A stretch of DNA of 25,496 nt from a virus (Duplodnaviria > Heunggongvirae > Uroviricota > Caudoviricetes): the IMG/VR virus record IMGVR_UViG_2724679539_000001, positions 1-25,496 of that record. One strand, written 5' to 3'. Each line of letters begins with the position of its first letter. Position 1 is the first letter of the stretch. The notes beneath the pieces are model-generated. The model saw only the letters and a list, made by a program, of their open reading frames with translations, did no database searches and was not told where the DNA came from. A program made the translations under genes and the position numbers. Shown here in pieces: positions 6,037 to 17,071 of this stretch.

Positions 6037-6047
6037 GTGGAGTGGAT

Positions 6048-8429
6048 ATGGCAGCAGTAAAAATCTCAGGTGTGCTGAAAGATGGTGCGGGAAAACCAAT
6101 ACAGAACTGCACTATTCAACTGAAGGCAAAGCGTAACAGCACCACGGTACTGGTGAACACGGTGGCCTCTGAAAATCCGGATGAAGCCGGGCGTTACAGC
6201 ATGGATGTTGAGTATGGTCAGTACAGCGTCACCCTGCTGGTTGAAGGTTTTCCGCCTTCACATGCCGGGACCATTACCGTCTATGAAGGTTCCAGACCAG
6301 GTACGCTGAATGATTTTCTCGGTGCCATGACGGAAGATGATGTCATGCCGGAGGCATTGCGTCGTTTTGAGGAAATGGTGGAAGAAGCGGCACGCAACGC
6401 TGAAGCCGCCTCTCAGAGCGCAGCGGCGGCAAAGAAATCCGAAACTGCAGCGGCATCATCGAAGAACGCGGCGAAAACCTCAGAAACGAATGCAGCTAAC
6501 AGCGCACAGGCGGCAGCGGCCTCGCAGACTGCATCGGCAAACTCCGCAACAGCAGCTAAAAAATCAGAAACCAACGCGAAAAATAGCGAGACAGCCGCAA
6601 AGACGAGCGAAACCAACGCAAAGTCCAGCCAGACGGCAGCGAAGACCAGCGAAACGAATGCCAAAGCCAGTGAAACTGCGGCAAAAAACAGCCAGGTTGC
6701 AGCAGCCCAAAGCGAGAGCGCGGCAGCCGGTTCTGCGACTTCAGCAGCTGGATCAGCAACTGCTACGGCTAACAGCCAGAAAGCTGCGAAGACGAGTGAA
6801 ACTAACGCAAAGTCCAGCCAGACGGCAGCGAAGACCAGCGAAACGAATGCCAAAGCCAGTGAAACTGCGGCGAAAAGCAGTCAGGATGCAGCGGCTCAAA
6901 GCGAGAGTGCCGCAGCCAGTTCTGCAAGCGCGGCGGCTGCTTCTGCCACTGCATCAGCCAACAGTCAAAAAGCAGCAAAAACCAGTGAAACCAATGCAAA
7001 GGCGAGCGAGACTGCGGCGGCTAACTCGGCGAAAGCATCCGCAGCAAGCCAGACGGCTGCAAAAGCAAGTGAAGACGCAGCCAGAGAGTATGCAAGCCAG
7101 GCTGCGGAGCCGTATAAACAAGTTTTGCAGCCGCTTCCCGATGTGTGGATACCATTTAACGATTCGCTGGATATGATTACGGGCTTTTCGCCGTCATATA
7201 AAAAGATTGTTATTGGTGATGATGAAATAACGATGCCTGGCGATAAGGTTGTAAAGTTTAAACGCGCATCAAAAGCAACTTACATTAATAAATCTGGTGT
7301 GCTGACAGAGGCTGCCATTGACGAGCCACGGTTTGAACGTGATGGCCTGCTTATTGAGGGGCAAAGAACTAATCTTCTGCTTAATTCAACAAATCCATCT
7401 AAATGGAATAAGTCAGGCAATCTGGAACTCACAGAAATATCCACGGATTCATTTAATTTTACTTATGGGAGATTTACTGTAAAAGATACTCTTATTGATC
7501 AGACAAGTGCGATTAATATCGCAACGGTTTCTGGCAGTAAAGGATTTGATGTCACAGGTGATGAAAAATATGTGACCATTTCATGCCGTGTCAGAAGTGA
7601 TGTTGAAAATATAAGGTGTCGTTTAAGATTTGAACATCATGATGGTTCTACTTACACTTTTTTGGGAGATGCTTACCTCAATTTATCAACACTTGTAATT
7701 GATAAGACTGGTGGTGCAGCAAATCGTATTATTGCAAAAGCTGTAAAAGATGAGGCTACTGGTTGGATTTTCTATCAGGCTACAATTAATGCACTAGATA
7801 CAGAGAGCATGATTGGTGCGATGGTTCAATATGCTCCAGTAAAAGGTTCAGGCACAGCATCTGGAGACTATCTGGATATCGCAACTCCACAAGTGGAAGG
7901 TGGATCAAGTGCTTCGTCATTTATTGTAACTGATATAACTGCAAGCACTCGCGCAAGCGATATGGTGACAGTCCCAATCAAGAATAACCTTTATAATCTT
8001 CCTTTTACGGTTCTTTGTGAGGTACATAAGAACTGGTATAAAACGCCAAATGCAGCACCGCGTGTTTTTGATACCGGCGGTCATCAAACCGGAGCGGCTA
8101 TTATTCTTGGCTTCGGTCGTTCAACAGATTACGACGGATTTCCTTATTGTGATATAGGTTTGGCTAACAGACGGGTAAACGAAAACGCATCGCTTGAAAA
8201 AATGGTTATGGGGATGCGTGTAAAGTCAGATCAGTCTACGTGCTCAGTAAGTAACGGGCGTATATCCAGCGAAACAAAAACCACATGGTCTTATATTCAG
8301 AACACCGCAATTATCCGTATTGGAGGCCAGACTACAGCCGGGTTACGTCATTTGTTTGGACACATCAGGAATTTCAGAATATGGCATAAAGAATTAACTG
8401 ATGCGCAAATGGGGGAGAGTATTAAATGA
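6048..8429 (+). CDS. stf: Side tail fibre protein with Stf-like N-terminal domain, Ala/Ser/Thr-rich repeat shaft and divergent AT-rich C-terminal domain
   Basis: N-terminus MAAVKISGVLKDGAGKPIQNCTIQLKAKRNSTTVLVNTVASENPDEAGRYSMDVEYGQYSV matches lambda Stf as recalled. The ORF track starts at GTG 6042; ATG at 6048 with GGAG 5 nt upstream is the more likely start. Confidence 0.85.
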   Translation: MAAVKISGVLKDGAGKPIQNCTIQLKAKRNSTTVLVNTVASENPDEAGRYSMDVEYGQYSVTLLVEGFPPSHAGTITVYEGSRPGTLNDFLGAMTEDDVMPEALRRFEEMVEEAARNAEAASQSAAAAKKSETAAASSKNAAKTSETNAANSAQAAAASQTASANSATAAKKSETNAKNSETAAKTSETNAKSSQTAAKTSETNAKASETAAKNSQVAAAQSESAAAGSATSAAGSATATANSQKAAKTSETNAKSSQTAAKTSETNAKASETAAKSSQDAAAQSESAAASSASAAAASATASANSQKAAKTSETNAKASETAAANSAKASAASQTAAKASEDAAREYASQAAEPYKQVLQPLPDVWIPFNDSLDMITGFSPSYKKIVIGDDEITMPGDKVVKFKRASKATYINKSGVLTEAAIDEPRFERDGLLIEGQRTNLLLNSTNPSKWNKSGNLELTEISTDSFNFTYGRFTVKDTLIDQTSAINIATVSGSKGFDVTGDEKYVTISCRVRSDVENIRCRLRFEHHDGSTYTFLGDAYLNLSTLVIDKTGGAANRIIAKAVKDEATGWIFYQATINALDTESMIGAMVQYAPVKGSGTASGDYLDIATPQVEGGSSASSFIVTDITASTRASDMVTVPIKNNLYNLPFTVLCEVHKNWYKTPNAAPRVFDTGGHQTGAAIILGFGRSTDYDGFPYCDIGLANRRVNENASLEKMVMGMRVKSDQSTCSVSNGRISSETKTTWSYIQNTAIIRIGGQTTAGLRHLFGHIRNFRIWHKELTDAQMGESIK
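6596..6929 (+). repeat. Internal tandem direct repeat inside stf (period 189 bp = 63 aa; two near-identical units with a 63-bp perfect core)
   Basis: 6621-6683 is identical to 6810-6872 (aagtccagccagacggcagcgaagaccagcgaaacgaatgccaaagccagtgaaactgcggc); flanks are ~85% identical. Encodes repeating KTSETNAK(A/S)S(E/Q)TAAK motifs. Confidence 0.85.
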
Positions 8430-8707
8430 AAGATTTAACACTCAAATTTGCAGACAGGGCCGACTTTTCGGCCTTTATGGAGAGTGCTGGCTATTATGAT
8501 GACGAGTCGATGCAGGATGATATTCTTATTGACGTGATAGGTAACGTGTACAAAGAAACCGGAGAACTTACTGAAGATGGCGAGCCGGTATGTGTTAAGG
8601 AAGACGGATATTTTGTAAACGTGCGCATCATTAATGATGTGAAAACACCGTCAATATTCGATGAATACGTGGTTGCTGTTGAGCATCAACTTCGTGGCTG
8701 GATGTGA
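8426..8707 (+). CDS. Hypothetical protein (93 aa), acidic, translationally coupled to stf (ATGA overlap)
   Basis: ORF with ATG overlapping the stf stop; AT-rich codon usage like its neighbours; no recognisable motif. Confidence 0.55.
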   Translation: MKDLTLKFADRADFSAFMESAGYYDDESMQDDILIDVIGNVYKETGELTEDGEPVCVKEDGYFVNVRIINDVKTPSIFDEYVVAVEHQLRGWM

Positions 8708-8716
8708 GGAAGAATA

Positions 8717-9757
8717 ATGGCTACATCGACAGTAATTCCTGATGACATCAAAACGCTAAAATCCGATGTTAGCAAATTAAAAAACGATCAAGGAAGCTAC
8801 GTAACAAAATCATATGTAGACAGCAAAAATGAAACCGTTAATGACTGGTCTGCTGCATGGTATCAGCAGGTACTGCCAACTAGCGGAGCTATATTTGGGC
8901 GAAAACTTCGCTCAACTCACAGGACGGCAGGTGTTGAGGATGCGTATTGCGAACTATACCTTAAAAAATGGATAGACAGCCCAGGGAACGCAATGGCGCG
9001 CCTTAACCTGAACGATAACGGTGAAAATATTTGCTGGGATTTTACCAACCTTTACGGCGGAACAATGATCTTCCCTGGTACTTCAGGCTATCTGAAAATG
9101 GGGAACTGTCTCATGTCGTATAGTGTGCGGGGAAGTAACGCGCTTATTAAGTTTGATTACACCGACACATTACAGATCAAATATGCTAATCATGGGTCAA
9201 CCATGACATTAACCACACAGGGATCCGCTCACGCTGGCGTAACAACTAGACTATGGGGTAATTCTAGCCGTCCGGTTGTTTATGAAGTTGGCGTAGATGA
9301 GGCTCTGTATATGTTCTACGCACAGAAAACTACCAGCAATACCTACGAATTAACGGTTAACGGCGCGTGCAATGCAAGTGCATTTAATCAAGGCTCTGAC
9401 CGGGATCTGAAAGACAATATTCAGGTGATCGATAATGCAACCGACCGCATTCGTAAAATGAACGGCTATACATACACGCTTAAAGAAAACGGTATGCCTT
9501 ACGCTGGTGTTATTGCACAAGAAACCCTGGAAGCCATCCCCGAAGCCGTAGGGTCTATGATGAAATATCCAGACGGCGGGAGTGGATTAGATGGAGAAGA
9601 AGGTGAACGGTATTACACAGTAGATTATTCTGGTGTTACTGGCTTGCTTGTTCAGGTAGCCAGAGAGTCGGACGACAGAATAACAGCACTGGAAGAAGAA
9701 AACGCAGAATTAAGACAAAGATTATCTGCAATTGAGGCGGCGCTTGCGTCTAAATAA
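8717..9757 (+). CDS. Tail fibre/tailspike-like protein with C-terminal peptidase S74 intramolecular chaperone (autoproteolytic) domain
   Basis: 346-aa ORF with GAGGA RBS. C-terminal region SDRDLKDNIQVIDNATDRIRKMNGYTYTLKENG...AGVIAQE followed by a coiled-coil tail (ITALEEENAELRQRLSAIEAALASK) fits the S74 chaperone signature with a Ser-x4-Lys dyad. Confidence 0.7.
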   Translation: MATSTVIPDDIKTLKSDVSKLKNDQGSYVTKSYVDSKNETVNDWSAAWYQQVLPTSGAIFGRKLRSTHRTAGVEDAYCELYLKKWIDSPGNAMARLNLNDNGENICWDFTNLYGGTMIFPGTSGYLKMGNCLMSYSVRGSNALIKFDYTDTLQIKYANHGSTMTLTTQGSAHAGVTTRLWGNSSRPVVYEVGVDEALYMFYAQKTTSNTYELTVNGACNASAFNQGSDRDLKDNIQVIDNATDRIRKMNGYTYTLKENGMPYAGVIAQETLEAIPEAVGSMMKYPDGGSGLDGEEGERYYTVDYSGVTGLLVQVARESDDRITALEEENAELRQRLSAIEAALASK

Positions 9758-9763
9758 TATTAA

Positions 9764-9786
9764 GGGGCCGAGCGCCCCGTTTTATT
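9764..9786 (+). terminator. Candidate terminator hairpin downstream of the S74-domain gene
   Basis: GGGGC-cgagc-GCCCC followed by GTTTTATT. Mirror copy at 15711-15733 on the minus strand. Confidence 0.45.
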
Positions 9787-9793
9787 GGGTAGG

Positions 9794-10087
9794 ATGAAAA
9801 TGGATATAACACCTTTCCTTCATGCACTTTGTGCTGTGGCTGCGCAGCTACTGATTGGTCTTTTTACCGGGAACTGGGCTTACGGTGCGATAGCCGGTTG
9901 TACGTTCTTCATCGCTCGTGAACATACCCAGGCAGAATATCGCTGGATTGAAATGTTCGGGCATGGCAAGCGTATGAATATGCCGTGGTGGGGCGGTTTT
10001 GATCCTCGCGCGTGGGATGTAGCAAGCCTGATGGATTTTGCTGTGCCGGTGGTGGCGTGTTTACTTGTATTTATATTTTTTGAATAA
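9794..10087 (+). CDS. Hypothetical small membrane protein (two predicted transmembrane segments)
   Basis: The ORF track begins at TTG 9785; ATG at 9794 or 9800 (GGTAGGA 5 nt upstream of 9800) is more plausible. Hydrophobic segments FLHALCAVAAQLLIGLF and VPVVACLLVFIFF. Confidence 0.55.
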   Translation: MKMDITPFLHALCAVAAQLLIGLFTGNWAYGAIAGCTFFIAREHTQAEYRWIEMFGHGKRMNMPWWGGFDPRAWDVASLMDFAVPVVACLLVFIFFE

Positions 10088-10135: not shown

Positions 10136-11125
10136 TTAGTTATTTTTTACATCGGAAGAATTTCCAAACGCCTCCTCAAGAATAGATTCAATTTTACTCA
10201 TTAGGTGCGATGGTATTTTTCTGTTATCTAATTTTAATGTTGTGAAATTTTTCCCATATTTCGCCACAACACCGTCTCCATATTTCTTTTCCCTTTTCTC
10301 TCCATGTGAATTGTTTTTCTCAACAATAATGAAATCATGAAGAGCCTGTATTATTCTTTGCGCATCTAAACTTTCACCTGATTTTTTCATCCTCAGCAAC
10401 TGAGATGCAGCATTTTTCATGGCTGCTTCCTGTCCCTGATATGCTTTAAAAAGAGCGTCTCCTGCTCTGGCTGATAACTCACCAGGATGGTTAAATATTG
10501 CCAATATATCTTTAGGTAAACCGGCTGTATTAATACATCGGCTGATAATATTTCTATCCACGCCTTCGGCTTCAGCTAAAGATTTTACGTTACCGTCAAA
10601 TTCATGGAGCCTTCGCAGGTATCTTTTCCCCCTTTCATAGGCGCTGATAGGTCTATAGTCGTTGCCTATCTGCGATAACCATTGCATTTGTTCATCATCT
10701 AAATCGCCAATAAGAACACGATAATCGCATCCAGTTATAATGGCTGCTTTACGTCTTCGAGAACCATCAGCTACTTCAACAATACCTGACACTTTTCTTG
10801 CGAAAGCCGGATTTTGTTGCCCAGAAGTTAGAAAAGATGGAATTAAATCAGCTAGAGAAGATTCATTTAATAAATCTTGATCACGCTCATTACCTAGCCA
10901 TACCATTGTTGCCATTTCTACTTTATCTGCGGGGATCGTCTCTAACTTAAAGTTAACATTACGTCCGCATACTGGCAAAGTTATGCTATTACCGGTTAAT
11001 GAACTCAGTTGACGTTTTAAATCACCAACCATAGGTGATACCGGCTGATGTTCAGGTGCATGATGATTATTACTCATAATGCGATTAATATCCGGAGCAT
11101 TTTTTAGAAGAGAGCGTTGTTTCAT
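10136..11125 (-). CDS. sopB: Partition protein SopB (ParB family, type Ia)
   Basis: 329-aa ORF. N-terminal two-thirds resemble F-plasmid SopB (ITLPVCGR, WxGNERDQ, GQQ.PAF, DGSRRRKAA, NDYRP.SAYERG, FSHPGELSA-like motifs); the C-terminus is divergent. ATG overlaps the sopA stop. Confidence 0.9.
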   Translation of the reverse strand: MKQRSLLKNAPDINRIMSNNHHAPEHQPVSPMVGDLKRQLSSLTGNSITLPVCGRNVNFKLETIPADKVEMATMVWLGNERDQDLLNESSLADLIPSFLTSGQQNPAFARKVSGIVEVADGSRRRKAAIITGCDYRVLIGDLDDEQMQWLSQIGNDYRPISAYERGKRYLRRLHEFDGNVKSLAEAEGVDRNIISRCINTAGLPKDILAIFNHPGELSARAGDALFKAYQGQEAAMKNAASQLLRMKKSGESLDAQRIIQALHDFIIVEKNNSHGEKREKKYGDGVVAKYGKNFTTLKLDNRKIPSHLMSKIESILEEAFGNSSDVKNN

Positions 11126-12291
11126 TCTTCGTTCTCCCAGCGAGGTTTTATTAGATCATCAAAAATTTCTCGACAAACAGGGTCCCATATAGAGACGGCA
11201 TTTCTCCATGCATTAAGTGTTGAACGCTGGTTTGCCGCTTGTTCAAATACTGTTCGCATTTTTATCTGACCTTTACCTACTTCATCGGTAACGCGTACAA
11301 CCTGACGTAATACCATTGATCCCCATGTATTTCTTATTTGCTCTTCCATCCATCGTGATTGATTTCCTGTAGTGAGACTATATTTAGTCAGAAGCAAGCG
11401 AACGGTCGGCTCAAATCCGCCTAGGTCAACGCTTTCTAGGAGATCGAGAAGCATTGTGAAAAACTGTAGAACAGAGGCGTAATCAAATAATTCTGCAGGG
11501 GTAGCAACAACGATAACGTCAGCTGCGCAAACAACGTTAATGGTTCCTGTACCGAGGTTTGGAGCACTATCTATAACGATAACATCGTAGTTATCCCAAA
11601 CTGATTCTATAGCTGCGCGTAGCATCAGGTGAGGAGGGTGAGGCAATTTACCCTGAGCATGATATTGCATGAGATCTGTTTCTATACGGTGTAAAGCTAG
11701 GCAGCTAGGAATAATGTCCAGTCCAGGCCAGCATGTTGGTTTTATAGCATATTCAGCGTTATCGCGTTCGCCCAAGTAAAATGGCAGTAAAGTATCCTCG
11801 GCATGTATATGTAAATCAGGTACATAACCGTGATACATGGAGGCTGTTCCCTGAGGATCGTTACCTTCAACTAAAAGAACACGATGACCTTGTAATGCTA
11901 GCCATTGTGCCTGATGTACTGCAGACGATGTTTTATAAACTCCGCCTTTGTGTGACATAACAGCAAGCACAACTGGGTTTTTATCTTGTGGCCGTTGGTT
12001 TGGGTTGCCAAAAACAGCTCGCATACTATTGATTTGATCTATGGTATAACCGGCACGACGTTCAACTCTTCCTCTCATTTCAAAGTCAGGTGCAGGTAAA
12101 CGCCCGTTCTTCTCAGCATCTCTTATTGCTTGAGGAGTTACACCAATTAAATCTGCTACTTCAGTTATCCCCCATCTACGCGTGATACGCCGAGCTTCAG
12201 GACTATCATCACCGAATTGAGCTATAGCAATTGCTTGGGTCATTTCTTGACCGCGCGTAACACAATCTTGTAATAACTTTTTCAAAGACAT
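11122..12291 (-). CDS. sopA: Partition ATPase SopA (ParA family, type Ia with N-terminal HTH extension)
   Basis: 389-aa ORF with deviant Walker A KGGVYKTS and a long N-terminal extension. High similarity to F/N15 SopA as recalled (LLVEGNDPQGTASMYHG, IDSAPNLG, KGQIRMRTVFEQA-like blocks). GGAG RBS. Confidence 0.95.
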   Translation of the reverse strand: MSLKKLLQDCVTRGQEMTQAIAIAQFGDDSPEARRITRRWGITEVADLIGVTPQAIRDAEKNGRLPAPDFEMRGRVERRAGYTIDQINSMRAVFGNPNQRPQDKNPVVLAVMSHKGGVYKTSSAVHQAQWLALQGHRVLLVEGNDPQGTASMYHGYVPDLHIHAEDTLLPFYLGERDNAEYAIKPTCWPGLDIIPSCLALHRIETDLMQYHAQGKLPHPPHLMLRAAIESVWDNYDVIVIDSAPNLGTGTINVVCAADVIVVATPAELFDYASVLQFFTMLLDLLESVDLGGFEPTVRLLLTKYSLTTGNQSRWMEEQIRNTWGSMVLRQVVRVTDEVGKGQIKMRTVFEQAANQRSTLNAWRNAVSIWDPVCREIFDDLIKPRWENEE

Positions 12292-12720: not shown

Positions 12721-12776
12721 TATCAGCACATAATTTCCCATTATACGCGCGTATAATGGGAAATTATGTGCTGATA
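12721..12776. other. 56-bp perfect palindrome at the symmetry axis; putative protelomerase target / hairpin telomere (telRL/telO-like)
   Basis: Sequence TATCAGCACATAATTTCCCATTATACGCGCGTATAATGGGAAATTATGTGCTGATA. The central 22 bp match the N15 telO core as I recall it; the flanking arms differ from N15 at a few positions. Sits immediately beyond sopA, as telL does in N15. Confidence 0.75.
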
Positions 12777-13205: not shown

Positions 13206-14375
13206 ATGTCTTTGAAAAAGTTATTACAAGATTGTGTTACGCGCGGTCAAGAAATGACCCAAGCAATTGCTATAGCTCAATTCGGTGATGATAGTCCTGA
13301 AGCTCGGCGTATCACGCGTAGATGGGGGATAACTGAAGTAGCAGATTTAATTGGTGTAACTCCTCAAGCAATAAGAGATGCTGAGAAGAACGGGCGTTTA
13401 CCTGCACCTGACTTTGAAATGAGAGGAAGAGTTGAACGTCGTGCCGGTTATACCATAGATCAAATCAATAGTATGCGAGCTGTTTTTGGCAACCCAAACC
13501 AACGGCCACAAGATAAAAACCCAGTTGTGCTTGCTGTTATGTCACACAAAGGCGGAGTTTATAAAACATCGTCTGCAGTACATCAGGCACAATGGCTAGC
13601 ATTACAAGGTCATCGTGTTCTTTTAGTTGAAGGTAACGATCCTCAGGGAACAGCCTCCATGTATCACGGTTATGTACCTGATTTACATATACATGCCGAG
13701 GATACTTTACTGCCATTTTACTTGGGCGAACGCGATAACGCTGAATATGCTATAAAACCAACATGCTGGCCTGGACTGGACATTATTCCTAGCTGCCTAG
13801 CTTTACACCGTATAGAAACAGATCTCATGCAATATCATGCTCAGGGTAAATTGCCTCACCCTCCTCACCTGATGCTACGCGCAGCTATAGAATCAGTTTG
13901 GGATAACTACGATGTTATCGTTATAGATAGTGCTCCAAACCTCGGTACAGGAACCATTAACGTTGTTTGCGCAGCTGACGTTATCGTTGTTGCTACCCCT
14001 GCAGAATTATTTGATTACGCCTCTGTTCTACAGTTTTTCACAATGCTTCTCGATCTCCTAGAAAGCGTTGACCTAGGCGGATTTGAGCCGACCGTTCGCT
14101 TGCTTCTGACTAAATATAGTCTCACTACAGGAAATCAATCACGATGGATGGAAGAGCAAATAAGAAATACATGGGGATCAATGGTATTACGTCAGGTTGT
14201 ACGCGTTACCGATGAAGTAGGTAAAGGTCAGATAAAAATGCGAACAGTATTTGAACAAGCGGCAAACCAGCGTTCAACACTTAATGCATGGAGAAATGCC
14301 GTCTCTATATGGGACCCTGTTTGTCGAGAAATTTTTGATGATCTAATAAAACCTCGCTGGGAGAACGAAGAATGA
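13206..14375 (+). CDS. sopA: Partition ATPase SopA (mirror copy)
   Basis: Protein identical to the 11122-12291 ORF. Confidence 0.95.
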   Translation: MSLKKLLQDCVTRGQEMTQAIAIAQFGDDSPEARRITRRWGITEVADLIGVTPQAIRDAEKNGRLPAPDFEMRGRVERRAGYTIDQINSMRAVFGNPNQRPQDKNPVVLAVMSHKGGVYKTSSAVHQAQWLALQGHRVLLVEGNDPQGTASMYHGYVPDLHIHAEDTLLPFYLGERDNAEYAIKPTCWPGLDIIPSCLALHRIETDLMQYHAQGKLPHPPHLMLRAAIESVWDNYDVIVIDSAPNLGTGTINVVCAADVIVVATPAELFDYASVLQFFTMLLDLLESVDLGGFEPTVRLLLTKYSLTTGNQSRWMEEQIRNTWGSMVLRQVVRVTDEVGKGQIKMRTVFEQAANQRSTLNAWRNAVSIWDPVCREIFDDLIKPRWENEE

Positions 14376-15361
14376 AACAACGCTCTCTTCTAAAAAATGC
14401 TCCGGATATTAATCGCATTATGAGTAATAATCATCATGCACCTGAACATCAGCCGGTATCACCTATGGTTGGTGATTTAAAACGTCAACTGAGTTCATTA
14501 ACCGGTAATAGCATAACTTTGCCAGTATGCGGACGTAATGTTAACTTTAAGTTAGAGACGATCCCCGCAGATAAAGTAGAAATGGCAACAATGGTATGGC
14601 TAGGTAATGAGCGTGATCAAGATTTATTAAATGAATCTTCTCTAGCTGATTTAATTCCATCTTTTCTAACTTCTGGGCAACAAAATCCGGCTTTCGCAAG
14701 AAAAGTGTCAGGTATTGTTGAAGTAGCTGATGGTTCTCGAAGACGTAAAGCAGCCATTATAACTGGATGCGATTATCGTGTTCTTATTGGCGATTTAGAT
14801 GATGAACAAATGCAATGGTTATCGCAGATAGGCAACGACTATAGACCTATCAGCGCCTATGAAAGGGGGAAAAGATACCTGCGAAGGCTCCATGAATTTG
14901 ACGGTAACGTAAAATCTTTAGCTGAAGCCGAAGGCGTGGATAGAAATATTATCAGCCGATGTATTAATACAGCCGGTTTACCTAAAGATATATTGGCAAT
15001 ATTTAACCATCCTGGTGAGTTATCAGCCAGAGCAGGAGACGCTCTTTTTAAAGCATATCAGGGACAGGAAGCAGCCATGAAAAATGCTGCATCTCAGTTG
15101 CTGAGGATGAAAAAATCAGGTGAAAGTTTAGATGCGCAAAGAATAATACAGGCTCTTCATGATTTCATTATTGTTGAGAAAAACAATTCACATGGAGAGA
15201 AAAGGGAAAAGAAATATGGAGACGGTGTTGTGGCGAAATATGGGAAAAATTTCACAACATTAAAATTAGATAACAGAAAAATACCATCGCACCTAATGAG
15301 TAAAATTGAATCTATTCTTGAGGAGGCGTTTGGAAATTCTTCCGATGTAAAAAATAACTAA
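14372..15361 (+). CDS. sopB: Partition protein SopB (mirror copy)
   Basis: Protein identical to the 10136-11125 ORF. Confidence 0.9.
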   Translation: MKQRSLLKNAPDINRIMSNNHHAPEHQPVSPMVGDLKRQLSSLTGNSITLPVCGRNVNFKLETIPADKVEMATMVWLGNERDQDLLNESSLADLIPSFLTSGQQNPAFARKVSGIVEVADGSRRRKAAIITGCDYRVLIGDLDDEQMQWLSQIGNDYRPISAYERGKRYLRRLHEFDGNVKSLAEAEGVDRNIISRCINTAGLPKDILAIFNHPGELSARAGDALFKAYQGQEAAMKNAASQLLRMKKSGESLDAQRIIQALHDFIIVEKNNSHGEKREKKYGDGVVAKYGKNFTTLKLDNRKIPSHLMSKIESILEEAFGNSSDVKNN

Positions 15362-15739: not shown

Positions 15740-16780
15740 TTATTTAGACGCAAGCGCCGCCTCAATTGCAGATAATCTTTGTCTTAATTCTGCGTTTTCT
15801 TCTTCCAGTGCTGTTATTCTGTCGTCCGACTCTCTGGCTACCTGAACAAGCAAGCCAGTAACACCAGAATAATCTACTGTGTAATACCGTTCACCTTCTT
15901 CTCCATCTAATCCACTCCCGCCGTCTGGATATTTCATCATAGACCCTACGGCTTCGGGGATGGCTTCCAGGGTTTCTTGTGCAATAACACCAGCGTAAGG
16001 CATACCGTTTTCTTTAAGCGTGTATGTATAGCCGTTCATTTTACGAATGCGGTCGGTTGCATTATCGATCACCTGAATATTGTCTTTCAGATCCCGGTCA
16101 GAGCCTTGATTAAATGCACTTGCATTGCACGCGCCGTTAACCGTTAATTCGTAGGTATTGCTGGTAGTTTTCTGTGCGTAGAACATATACAGAGCCTCAT
16201 CTACGCCAACTTCATAAACAACCGGACGGCTAGAATTACCCCATAGTCTAGTTGTTACGCCAGCGTGAGCGGATCCCTGTGTGGTTAATGTCATGGTTGA
16301 CCCATGATTAGCATATTTGATCTGTAATGTGTCGGTGTAATCAAACTTAATAAGCGCGTTACTTCCCCGCACACTATACGACATGAGACAGTTCCCCATT
16401 TTCAGATAGCCTGAAGTACCAGGGAAGATCATTGTTCCGCCGTAAAGGTTGGTAAAATCCCAGCAAATATTTTCACCGTTATCGTTCAGGTTAAGGCGCG
16501 CCATTGCGTTCCCTGGGCTGTCTATCCATTTTTTAAGGTATAGTTCGCAATACGCATCCTCAACACCTGCCGTCCTGTGAGTTGAGCGAAGTTTTCGCCC
16601 AAATATAGCTCCGCTAGTTGGCAGTACCTGCTGATACCATGCAGCAGACCAGTCATTAACGGTTTCATTTTTGCTGTCTACATATGATTTTGTTACGTAG
16701 CTTCCTTGATCGTTTTTTAATTTGCTAACATCGGATTTTAGCGTTTTGATGTCATCAGGAATTACTGTCGATGTAGCCAT
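15740..16780 (-). CDS. Tail fibre-like protein with S74 intramolecular chaperone domain (mirror copy)
   Basis: Protein identical to the 8717-9757 ORF. Confidence 0.7.
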   Translation of the reverse strand: MATSTVIPDDIKTLKSDVSKLKNDQGSYVTKSYVDSKNETVNDWSAAWYQQVLPTSGAIFGRKLRSTHRTAGVEDAYCELYLKKWIDSPGNAMARLNLNDNGENICWDFTNLYGGTMIFPGTSGYLKMGNCLMSYSVRGSNALIKFDYTDTLQIKYANHGSTMTLTTQGSAHAGVTTRLWGNSSRPVVYEVGVDEALYMFYAQKTTSNTYELTVNGACNASAFNQGSDRDLKDNIQVIDNATDRIRKMNGYTYTLKENGMPYAGVIAQETLEAIPEAVGSMMKYPDGGSGLDGEEGERYYTVDYSGVTGLLVQVARESDDRITALEEENAELRQRLSAIEAALASK

Positions 16781-16789
16781 TATTCTTCC

Positions 16790-17071
16790 TCACATCCAGC
16801 CACGAAGTTGATGCTCAACAGCAACCACGTATTCATCGAATATTGACGGTGTTTTCACATCATTAATGATGCGCACGTTTACAAAATATCCGTCTTCCTT
16901 AACACATACCGGCTCGCCATCTTCAGTAAGTTCTCCGGTTTCTTTGTACACGTTACCTATCACGTCAATAAGAATATCATCCTGCATCGACTCGTCATCA
17001 TAATAGCCAGCACTCTCCATAAAGGCCGAAAAGTCGGCCCTGTCTGCAAATTTGAGTGTTAAATCTTTCAT
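16790..17071 (-). CDS. Hypothetical protein, 93 aa (mirror copy)
   Basis: Protein identical to the 8426-8707 ORF. Confidence 0.55.
   Translation of the reverse strand: MKDLTLKFADRADFSAFMESAGYYDDESMQDDILIDVIGNVYKETGELTEDGEPVCVKEDGYFVNVRIINDVKTPSIFDEYVVAVEHQLRGWM

What the first reader, a model, noticed from the sequence alone, without database searches (positions are those of the whole stretch)
8717..9757. Short fibre or spike protein with a self-cleaving S74 chaperone domain downstream of stf
The C-terminal ~120 residues show the intramolecular chaperone signature (Ser-Asp-x-x-x-Lys dyad at SDRDLK, then a coiled coil). Only ~225 residues precede the predicted cleavage site, which is short for a fibre, so this may be a small receptor-binding tip or depolymerase-like adaptor. 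It may give the phage a second receptor specificity alongside J and Stf.
Basis: partly seen in the sequence, partly recalled or inferred. Interest (0 to 1): 0.5.

Follow-up and report, generated by a model that had tools for sequence, protein, structure and literature searches.

The report
Self-cleaving tip protein of side fibre
This gene encodes a small, common phage tail-fibre protein with a built-in folding domain that most likely cuts itself off; it is an ordinary, already catalogued part of a three-gene side-fibre cassette that many E. coli phages share.

Summary
The ORF at 8717-9757 (+), 346 aa, is real and intact. Ser227, Asp228 and Lys232 (SDRDLK) are invariant in 46 homologues, and a C-terminal helix is predicted. 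Predicted cleavage at Gly226|Ser227 would give a 24.9 kDa mature part and a 13.2 kDa chaperone fragment.

The protein is not novel. Identical copies are annotated in RefSeq, PHROG 4563 matches over its full length, and 772 of 5426 complete E. coli genomes carry a match.

It is always the third gene of a cassette: fibre gene, 89-93 aa ORF, then this gene. The cassette occurs in lambdoid, N15-like, Nonagvirus and T1-like phages. The first 20 residues are conserved in all of them. The fibre protein's tail-attachment domain is not: lambdoid and Nonagvirus fibres share a phage_tail_N domain that the T1-like fibre lacks.

The protein is therefore most likely a facultative distal or branch subunit that docks on the Stf-like fibre and adds a second receptor-binding module. 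This would resemble LtfB on LtfA in phage DT57C. Docking, cleavage and the receptor remain untested. No depolymerase domain was found.

In passing: the whole window is a palindrome around an N15-type telomere.

The parts
8717..9757 (+). Gene for the 346-aa tail-fibre protein with a C-terminal S74 intramolecular chaperone (the finding)
   Evidence: ORF. Pfam PF13884 at 52 bits against a cut-off of 22. PHROG 4563 over the full length, E 3e-210. 100% identical copies are annotated 'tail fiber domain-containing protein' in RefSeq.
8717..8806 (+). aa 1-30: conserved N-terminal anchor motif (M-A/V-T-x-T-V/I-I-P-x-D-I-x-T-L-K-x-D-V-S) followed by the start of a helical stalk
   Evidence: Conservation is 0.78-0.82 over aa 1-20 in 12 non-redundant homologues that go down to about 40% identity. 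The motif is present in lambdoid, N15-like, Nonagvirus and Drexlerviridae homologues. A helix is predicted at aa 9-30. Stalk length varies between homologues: P0016 and P0024 carry extra repeats.
8837..9226 (+). aa 41-170: the most variable region, and the candidate receptor-binding part
   Evidence: Conservation is 0.38-0.53 over aa 41-110 and 0.5-0.65 over aa 111-170. Beta strands at aa 58-118 have pLDDT of about 80. No fold match was found.
9239..9394 (+). aa 175-226: pre-cleavage fibre module (LWGNSSRPVVYEVG...YMFYAQK...NGAC), homologous to a motif in T4 gp34
   Evidence: The family profile against PDB hits 4uxe, 5nxf and 5nxh (T4 gp34) at E 9.5e-9 to 1e-6. Foldseek gives gp34 probability 0.91. 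W180, G181, R185, V188, E190 and F200 are invariant.
9395..9412 (+). SDRDLK: the predicted catalytic Ser227/Lys232 dyad. The predicted scissile bond is Gly226|Ser227.
   Evidence: Codons were read directly from the sequence. S227, D228 and K232 are invariant in 46 sequences. The motif aligns with SSDRRIK of phage S16 gp37 (6f45). The cleavage position is inferred from T5 pb1 Ser1264/Lys1269 (PMC4690869).
9395..9754 (+). aa 227-346: S74 intramolecular chaperone domain (13.2 kDa), ending in the helix at aa 304-345 (nt 9626-9751)
   Evidence: Pfam match. Conservation is 0.75-0.9 over aa 231-320. The helix has pLDDT of about 90. Molecular weight.
6042..8429 (+). Stf-like side tail fibre protein (795 aa), the proposed proximal partner. 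It has a phage_tail_N domain, an Ala/Ser/Thr/Lys-rich shaft, and a C-terminal domain with its own GTA-spike-fibre module (aa 437-638, nt 7350-7955).
   Evidence: Pfam phage_tail_N, E 7e-67. NCBIfam GTA_spike_fiber NF048003 at 59 bits against a cut-off of 36. PDB 6tb9 head spike fibre, E 1.2e-4. A homologue of its C-terminal part lies upstream of the S74 gene in 80 of 80 loci.
8426..8707 (+). 93-aa ORF of unknown function. It overlaps the stf stop (ATGA) and is a constant companion of the fibre gene.
   Evidence: It is present in all 87 cassettes examined. It is also present in ev207-type cassettes that lack the S74 gene. It has no Pfam or NCBIfam match. PHROG 1361 has unknown function.
9764..9778 (+). 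Terminator-like GC hairpin followed by a T run, just after the S74 stop codon
15740..16780 (-). Mirror copy of the same gene in the other arm of the palindromic window

Best explanation
The gene encodes a homotrimeric tail-fibre subunit. Its C-terminal 120 residues are an S74 intramolecular chaperone. This domain is expected to nucleate trimer folding of the preceding beta-structured fibre module and then remove itself, using the Ser227/Lys232 dyad to cut at Gly226|Ser227. That would leave a mature protein of 226 residues (24.9 kDa) with an exposed tip.

The mature protein has four parts: a conserved 20-residue N-terminal anchor, a short helical stalk of variable length, a variable region, and a gp34-like module. 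It has no tail-attachment domain of its own. It most likely docks through the N-terminal anchor onto a partner encoded in the same cassette: the distal part of the Stf-like fibre, the 93-aa protein, or both.

The result would be a two-component, probably branched, side fibre. Its second receptor-binding module, probably specific for a surface glycan, would work alongside the Stf's own GTA-spike-like domain and the J tip.

Shown here: domain membership, the conserved dyad, strict synteny, facultative presence, and sharing of the cassette across phage lineages. Inferred: trimerisation, cleavage, docking, fibre geometry and the receptor.
For: S74 domain:
- Pfam scores 52 bits against a cut-off of 22.
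- S227, D228 and K232 are invariant in 46 homologues.
- The family profile hits the chaperone region of S16 gp37 (6f45, E 1.2e-9) and the T4 gp34 fibre module (E 9.5e-9).
- BFVD matches are lateral or long tail fibres, including DT57C LtfA.

The protein belongs to the fibre locus:
- In 80 of 80 IMG/VR loci it lies directly after a homologous Stf C-terminal domain and the small ORF.
- The block of Stf C-terminal 430 aa, the 93-aa protein (98% identical) and the S74 protein (94% identical) is shared with virulent Nonagvirus ESCO3, whose fibre N-terminus and shaft differ.
- The same three-gene cassette occurs in T1-like phages. In PeterMerian the lateral fibre has a different N-terminal domain. 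The homologues P0042 and P0046, about 40% identical, also sit in T1-like genomes.
- Lambdoid and Nonagvirus fibres share a phage_tail_N domain that the T1-like fibre lacks, yet the anchor motif is conserved in all these lineages. Its partner should therefore be internal to the cassette.

Facultative accessory with its own specificity:
- ev207-type cassettes have an identical Stf N-terminus and shaft, but 0 of 46 carry the gene.
- Two alleles, of 346 aa and about 234 aa, share the anchor.
- Identity of the Stf C-terminus (40-98%) and of the S74 protein vary independently.
- Fused versions exist in which the same tip ends a fibre of 1200-1560 aa (PHROGs 6578 and 5668; phiHS1).

Precedents:
- In DT57C, LtfB attaches via LtfA (PMC10713586).
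- In BASEL phages, distal chaperone-bearing fibres sit on proximal fibres.
- In T5 pb1, cleavage unmasks the receptor site.
Against: - There is no direct evidence of cleavage, trimerisation, presence in the virion, or binding to Stf or the 93-aa protein.
- The AlphaFold2 monomer model is poor (pLDDT 62, pTM 0.31). It gave no significant PDB fold match beyond gp34.
- No docking site could be pinpointed. The conserved Stf segments do not clearly separate cassettes with the gene from those without it.
- The most variable region (aa 41-110) lies near the stalk, not at the tip next to the cleavage site. This differs from T5 pb1.
- Adjacent genes can stay linked without any physical interaction between their products.
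- About one copy in ten in public data is truncated. The protein is therefore dispensable, and its contribution may be small.
Confidence: 0.6

Rival explanations
1. It is an independent short fibre or spike that attaches directly to the tail tip (J, K, L or I proteins, or the tube). It would be separate from Stf and give a third, autonomous receptor-binding organelle.
For: It is a separate polypeptide with its own Shine-Dalgarno sequence. It has a conserved N-terminus that could be a tail-binding peptide. It is absent from otherwise similar phages, as an add-on spike would be.
Against: The N-terminal motif is conserved in lambdoid, N15-like, Nonagvirus and T1-like phages. Among these, the T1-like lateral fibre lacks the phage_tail_N attachment domain that the lambdoid and Nonagvirus fibres share. 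Tail-tip proteins themselves were not compared here. The gene is never found apart from the fibre gene and small-ORF pair (80 of 80 and 73 of 73 loci). The protein has no phage_tail_N or other attachment domain.
Confidence: 0.15
2. It is a trans-acting assembly chaperone for the Stf-like fibre and is not a virion component. Some records annotate it this way ('endosialidase chaperone', 'putative lateral tail fiber chaperone').
For: ESCO3 and PeterMerian carry these annotations. The gene sits roughly where tfa-type chaperones sit, downstream of a fibre gene. The 231-234-aa allele would leave a mature part of only 105-115 residues, which is small for a receptor-binding protein.
Against: Known S74 domains act in cis on their own polypeptide and are then released (PMC4690869). 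ev207-type phages keep a homologous Stf and small ORF without this gene, so Stf folding does not require it. The region before the cleavage site is a fibre module homologous to T4 gp34 and to the distal ends of long fibres. The pattern of conserved ends and a variable middle is typical of receptor-binding proteins.
Confidence: 0.1
3. It is a decaying, non-functional remnant: the tip of a once longer fibre that was split off by rearrangement and is now carried along passively.
For: Fused long versions exist. Truncated or split copies are fairly common (PhiR47_1 as 294 + 37 aa; L089, L094, L096, L111, L161).
Against: The copy in the window is intact, with all invariant residues. The 346-aa form is conserved in length across hundreds of genomes and in virulent phages. 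A dedicated and conserved N-terminal motif and start context argue for selection on the split form.
Confidence: 0.05

Closest known systems
Phage T5 L-shaped tail fibre pb1, C-terminal receptor-binding domain plus intramolecular chaperone (PDB 4UW7/4UW8; PMC4690869)
   Same: Both have a C-terminal S74 chaperone with a Ser-x4-Lys dyad (pb1 Ser1264/Lys1269; here Ser227/Lys232). In both the chaperone ends in a helical coiled coil. In pb1, cleavage unmasks the distal receptor site. Both are lateral fibres of an E. coli siphovirus.
   Different: pb1 is a single polypeptide of 1396 aa that attaches to the tail through its own N-terminus. Here only 226 residues precede the cleavage site, and there is no tail-attachment domain. 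No sequence similarity to the pb1 bullet domain was detected. pb1 did not appear in the PDB sequence searches.
Branched lateral tail fibres of T5-like phage DT57C: LtfA plus LtfB (PMC4728585, PMC10713586)
   Same: Both are lateral fibres built from two proteins. In DT57C the second protein reaches the virion only through the first, which gives two receptor specificities. The model also matches DT57C LtfA in BFVD (E 1.5e-7).
   Different: LtfB is much larger. No 93-aa ORF is known to lie between ltfA and ltfB. Attachment of the present protein to Stf is inferred from comparative genomics only.
Endosialidase (K1F endoNF) C-terminal intramolecular chaperone domain, the founding member of Pfam PF13884 Peptidase_S74
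   Same: The domain family and the catalytic motif are the same.
   Different: This protein has no sialidase or other enzymatic domain, and no long triple beta-helix stalk.
Salmonella phage S16 gp37 distal long tail fibre (PDB 6F45) and T4 gp34 C-terminal region (PDB 4UXE/5NXF)
   Same: These are the best solved relatives by sequence. The gp37 chaperone segment aligns with aa 214-331 (E 1.2e-9 with the profile). A gp34 motif aligns with aa ~175-218 (E 9.5e-9).
   Different: Both are parts of myovirus long fibres of 750-1290 aa. The similarity covers only these modules.
Third gene of the lateral-tail-fibre locus of small E. coli siphoviruses, e.g. bas05_0029 of PeterMerian ('putative lateral tail fiber chaperone'), ESCO3_00080 and JenP1 AKA60891
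   Same: The cassette is the same: fibre, an ORF of about 92 aa, then a protein with the anchor motif and an S74 domain. ESCO3 is 94% identical. PeterMerian shares the first 24 residues at 62.5% identity (15 of 24) and the S74 domain.
   Different: Those phages are virulent, whereas the window is an N15-like plasmid prophage. PeterMerian carries the short (231 aa) allele. None of these proteins has been characterised experimentally, as far as the searches here show.
Phage lambda Stf plus Tfa
   Same: The position is the same, downstream of J and lom, and the Stf N-terminal domain (phage_tail_N) is the same.
   Different: Lambda Stf is folded by a separate Tfa chaperone and has no S74 protein. 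Here the Stf C-terminus is a GTA-spike-like domain, no tfa gene is present, and there is an extra self-processing subunit.

Membership tests
Peptidase_S74 / intramolecular chaperone auto-processing domain (Pfam PF13884) | Significant match to the family profile, above the curated threshold | tested here: met
   E 8.8e-14 and 52 bits against a cut-off of 22. The match covers aa 227-278 and profile positions 1-57 of 58.
Peptidase_S74 / intramolecular chaperone auto-processing domain (Pfam PF13884) | Catalytic Ser and Lys five residues apart (S-x4-K) at the start of the domain, conserved in relatives | tested here: met
   S227-D-R-D-L-K232. S227, D228 and K232 are invariant in 46 homologues. The motif aligns with SDRRIK of S16 gp37.
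Peptidase_S74 / intramolecular chaperone auto-processing domain (Pfam PF13884) | The domain sits at the extreme C-terminus and ends in a helix able to form a trimeric coiled coil | tested here: met
   The domain spans aa 227-346, the end of the protein. A helix is predicted at aa 304-345 with pLDDT of about 90. Trimer formation itself was not tested.
Peptidase_S74 / intramolecular chaperone auto-processing domain (Pfam PF13884) | Autoproteolytic release of the C-terminal domain after trimer folding | not testable with these tools
   This needs expression and SDS-PAGE or mass spectrometry. The predicted fragments are 24.9 and 13.2 kDa.
Peptidase_S74 / intramolecular chaperone auto-processing domain (Pfam PF13884) | A trimeric beta-structured fibre or spike module lies immediately upstream, and its folding depends on the chaperone | tested here: inconclusive
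   The upstream segment (aa ~175-218) is homologous to a T4 gp34 fibre motif (E 9.5e-9) and is predicted as beta strands. The monomer model is of low confidence, and no trimer could be modelled.
Two-component (branched) lateral tail fibre, DT57C LtfA/LtfB type | Two adjacent fibre genes, of which only the first carries the tail-attachment domain | tested here: met
   phage_tail_N is found only in the 795-aa Stf. The 346-aa protein has none. In PeterMerian the first gene has a different N-terminus, yet the third gene keeps the same anchor.
Two-component (branched) lateral tail fibre, DT57C LtfA/LtfB type | Each protein carries its own receptor-binding module | tested here: inconclusive
   Stf has a GTA_spike_fiber domain. 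The S74 protein has a variable region. The two assort independently. No binding was tested.
Two-component (branched) lateral tail fibre, DT57C LtfA/LtfB type | The second protein is incorporated into virions only through the first | not testable with these tools
   This needs genetics and virion proteomics. The indirect support is strict synteny and conservation of the anchor across phage lineages.
Tailspike or capsule depolymerase | A catalytic glycosidase or lyase domain (beta-helix or beta-propeller) before the chaperone | tested here: not met

The most novel reading that the evidence does not exclude
The conserved 20-residue N-terminus is a universal docking peptide. It would plug interchangeable, self-processing tip proteins (the 346-aa and ~234-aa alleles) onto a conserved site of the fibre cassette, possibly through the uncharacterised 93-aa protein acting as an adaptor. 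This would create branched fibres with two receptor-binding modules. It would also let temperate lambdoid phages, telomere phage-plasmids and virulent T1-like and Queuovirinae phages trade host-range modules as one mobile three-gene unit.
Probability: 0.35. Interest if true: 0.45.

Novelty: already known. Interest (0 to 1): 0.2.

Why it matters
For the window itself this is routine annotation: a tail-fibre gene with a self-cleaving chaperone domain. Database names for this gene are inconsistent. It appears as 'hypothetical protein', 'endosialidase chaperone', 'lateral tail fiber chaperone' and 'tail fiber protein'.

The comparative result argues that it is a structural and facultative subunit of the side fibre, not a trans-acting chaperone. 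The three-gene cassette, with its constant N-terminal anchor, is shared by temperate, plasmid-prophage and virulent E. coli siphoviruses. If docking were confirmed, it would give a simple handle for swapping receptor-binding tips when engineering host range. It would also explain part of the host-range variation among closely related prophages.

Tried and rejected

2. The 93-aa protein. It has no Pfam or NCBIfam match. The homologues listed from the large database (best 120 of 227) were all at least 85% identical. The AlphaFold2 model had pLDDT 49 and was unusable.

3. Stop-codon readthrough fusing the 93-aa ORF to the S74 ORF. The two are in frame in the window. I rejected the idea because other cassettes have TAA stops or 10-nt spacers.

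4. Depolymerase or adaptor idea. No enzymatic domain was found.

5. A docking signature in Stf. The conserved junction segment (QPLPDVWIPFNDSLDMITG...) does not cleanly separate cassettes with the gene from those without it. The cassettes lacking the gene are too uniform for a fair test.

6. Literature. I found no paper on the PhiR phages. I found no experimental work on this protein family.

7. Phage N15 itself carries a different fibre region, gp25, and no such cassette.

Full report
**Observation.** The ORF at 8717-9757 (+) is present exactly as described. It encodes 346 aa, starts at an ATG preceded by GAGGAAG, and has SDRDLK at aa 227-232 (nt 9395-9412). This is far beyond chance. Pfam Peptidase_S74 matches aa 227-278 with E 8.8e-14 and 52 bits against a gathering cut-off of 22. 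PHROG 4563 'tail fiber protein' matches end to end (E 3e-210). In an alignment of 46 homologues, Ser227, Asp228 and Lys232 are invariant. AlphaFold2 predicts a confident C-terminal helix at aa 304-345. Two corrections apply. A 93-aa ORF (8426-8707) separates the gene from stf. An identical mirror copy lies at 15740-16780 (-), because the window is a palindrome.

**Anatomy.** Conservation across 12 non-redundant relatives, down to about 40% identity, shows four parts.
- aa 1-20 are conserved (0.8). The motif is M-A/V-T-x-T-V/I-I-P-x-D-I-x-T-L-K-x-D-V-S.
- A helical stalk follows. Its length varies between homologues: P0016 and P0024 carry extra repeats.
- aa 41-110 are the most variable part (0.4-0.5).
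- The chaperone domain is conserved (0.75-0.9).

A family profile searched against PDB sequences hits the chaperone part of Salmonella phage S16 gp37 (6f45, E 1.2e-9). For aa ~175-218 it hits a fibre motif of T4 gp34 (4uxe, E 9.5e-9). PHROG matches place aa ~92-342 at the extreme C-termini of fibres of 1200-1560 aa. BFVD matches are lateral or long tail fibres, including DT57C LtfA. No enzymatic domain was found. By analogy with T5 pb1, cleavage should occur at Gly226|Ser227. In pb1, Ser1264/Lys1269 form the dyad, the serine leaves with the chaperone, and cleavage unmasks the receptor site (PMC4690869). Here cleavage would give fragments of 24.9 and 13.2 kDa. This step is inferred.

**Context.** The gene order in the window is J, lom, a 795-aa Stf-like fibre, the 93-aa ORF, this gene, a terminator-like hairpin, and a small membrane ORF. 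ParB and ParA follow on the other strand, and then a telomere site. The closest phage is the N15-like PhiR46_1 (96.7% identical). The Stf-like protein has a phage_tail_N domain. It also has its own C-terminal GTA-spike-fibre domain (NCBIfam NF048003, 59 bits against a cut-off of 36; RcGTA head spike fibre 6tb9, E 1.2e-4).

**Comparative genomics.**
- In 80 of 80 IMG/VR loci that carry a homologue, the gene directly follows a homologous Stf C-terminal domain (40-98% identity) and an ORF of 89-93 aa.
- The virulent Nonagvirus ESCO3 shares the Stf C-terminal 430 aa, the 93-aa protein (98%) and this protein (94%). Its fibre N-terminus and shaft are divergent. JenP1 has the same layout.
- T1-like Drexlerviridae carry the same three-gene cassette. 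In PeterMerian the lateral fibre has a different N-terminal domain with no Pfam match. The distant homologues P0042 and P0046 also sit in T1-like genomes.
- Cassettes with the window-type small ORF always have an anchor-bearing gene next (73 of 73). That gene is either the 346-aa allele or an allele of 227-234 aa with its own S74 domain.
- ev207-type lambdoids have an Stf N-terminus and shaft virtually identical to the window's, plus a homologous small ORF. In 0 of 46 informative ev207-type loci is an anchor-bearing gene present; the membrane ORF follows the small ORF directly in nearly all of them.
- Several copies are truncated, for example PhiR47_1 as 294 + 37 aa.

**Interpretation.** The gene is a facultative module of the side-fibre cassette. 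Its N-terminal anchor is conserved across phage lineages. The fibre protein's tail-attachment domain is not uniform: lambdoid and Nonagvirus fibres share a phage_tail_N domain that the T1-like fibre lacks. The anchor's binding partner is therefore most likely encoded inside the cassette: the distal part of the fibre protein, the 93-aa protein, or both. The mature protein would then form a distal or branch subunit with a second receptor-binding module. There are precedents:
- In DT57C, LtfB attaches through LtfA (PMC4728585; PMC10713586).
- The BASEL studies describe chaperone-bearing distal fibres attached to proximal fibres.
- They also note that lateral fibres can consist of one polypeptide or of several.
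- Fused versions exist in which the same kind of tip ends the lateral fibre protein itself.

I put this explanation at 0.6. The rivals are direct attachment to the tail (0.15), a trans-acting chaperone as some records annotate it (0.1), and a decaying remnant (0.05). The arguments against the chaperone idea are that S74 domains act in cis, that ev207-type phages do without the gene, and that the pre-cleavage segment is a fibre module.

**Limits.** The AlphaFold2 monomer model is weak (pLDDT 62) and gave no useful fold match. The model of the 93-aa protein failed (pLDDT 49). No multimer modelling was possible. I could not identify a docking site. The idea of a readthrough fusion between the small ORF and this gene was rejected.

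**Novelty.** The protein is common and already catalogued. Copies 100% identical at the nucleotide level are annotated 'tail fiber domain-containing protein' in RefSeq, and 772 of 5426 complete E. coli genomes carry a match. One 90%-identity cluster alone has 2132 members. The kind of protein, a fibre with an S74 intramolecular chaperone, is well characterised in T5, K1F, GA-1 and S16. What is not settled experimentally is how this short split form is mounted on the virion and what it binds. I score interest at 0.2.

**In passing.** The 25,496-base window equals its own reverse complement except for 14 positions at the extreme ends. Its centre (12721-12776) is identical to the N15 telRL site at 50 of 56 positions and is perfectly palindromic. 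This is the signature of an unfolded hairpin telomere of a linear plasmid prophage. It could come from reads passing through the hairpin during assembly, or from a head-to-head replication intermediate. The same junction occurs in a few RefSeq records, whereas proper linear records of about 46 kb end at the centre.

Noticed in passing
window 1-25496; centre 12748/12749; site 12721-12776: The whole window is a near-perfect palindrome, with only 14 mismatches, all at the extreme ends. It is centred on a 56-bp site that is 50/56 identical to the N15 telRL telomere-resolution site and is itself perfectly palindromic. This looks like the unfolded hairpin telomere (telR joined to its own complement) of an N15-like linear plasmid prophage. 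It is either an assembly read-through of the hairpin or a head-to-head replication intermediate. Every gene in the window is therefore present twice. The same junction occurs in RefSeq NZ_CP101203.1, NZ_CP025707.1 and NZ_CP019258.1, whereas linear records of about 46 kb end at the centre.
   Followed up: partly
window 8426-8707 (+); mirror copy 16790-17071 (-): A 93-aa ORF overlaps the stf stop codon. It is present in every cassette examined (87 of 87) and also in cassettes that lack the S74 gene. It occurs in lambdoid, Nonagvirus and T1-like phages at 33-53% identity, with 18 invariant residues. It has no Pfam or NCBIfam match, and the AlphaFold2 model was unusable (pLDDT 49). Its function is unknown. 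It may be an assembly factor or adaptor for the fibre.
   Followed up: partly
window 9764-9778 and 9785-10087 (likely start ATG 9794 or 9800): A terminator-like hairpin is followed by a small hydrophobic ORF of about 97-100 aa (PHROG 1443, unknown function). The ORF is conserved at this position in lambdoid cassettes with and without the S74 gene. It looks like a moron-type membrane protein.
   Followed up: no
window 7350-7955 (Stf aa 437-638): The Stf-like fibre ends in a GTA_spike_fiber domain (NCBIfam NF048003, E 6.5e-16). It is related to the Rhodobacter gene-transfer-agent head spike fibre Rcc01080 (PDB 6tb9, E 1.2e-4). It does not have a lambda-type Stf tip, and no tfa gene is present.
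   Followed up: partly
L004:4318-5022 (PhiR49_1); also L095, L099 and others; L213:5001-5696 (PeterMerian): An alternative allele of 227-234 aa sits at the same locus. It has the same N-terminal ~20 residues and a longer coiled coil, with only 105-115 residues before its own S74 domain (dyad SSIRYK in PhiR49_1; Pfam 27.3 bits for PhiR49_1 and 22.6 bits for PeterMerian). About 28 of 73 cassettes with the window-type small ORF carry it.
   Followed up: partly
L005:4020-5060 (PhiR47_1); L089, L094, L096, L111, L161: Copies of the gene are often truncated or split. PhiR47_1 has pieces of 294 and 37 aa, and other copies are 90, 194, 299, 227 and 189 aa. This suggests the protein is dispensable in prophages, or that some records contain sequencing errors.
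   Followed up: no
window 6337-7176 (+) and 6413-6853 (-): Long ORFs in alternative frames and on the antisense strand lie inside the stf shaft region. They arise from the repetitive Ala/Ser/Thr/Lys-rich coding sequence (repeats such as AAKTSETNAKSSQTAAKTSETNAKASETAAK) and are very likely not genes.
   Followed up: no
window 10136-12291 (-); mirror copy 13206-15361 (+): ParB-like (329 aa) and ParA/SopA-like (389 aa) partition genes lie between the fibre cassette and the telomere, as in N15. This fits a plasmid-prophage lifestyle.
   Followed up: no
L087:5397-8846 (phage ev207): In the related lambdoid phage ev207, a sitABCD iron/manganese transporter operon lies just downstream of the fibre cassette as cargo.
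   Followed up: no
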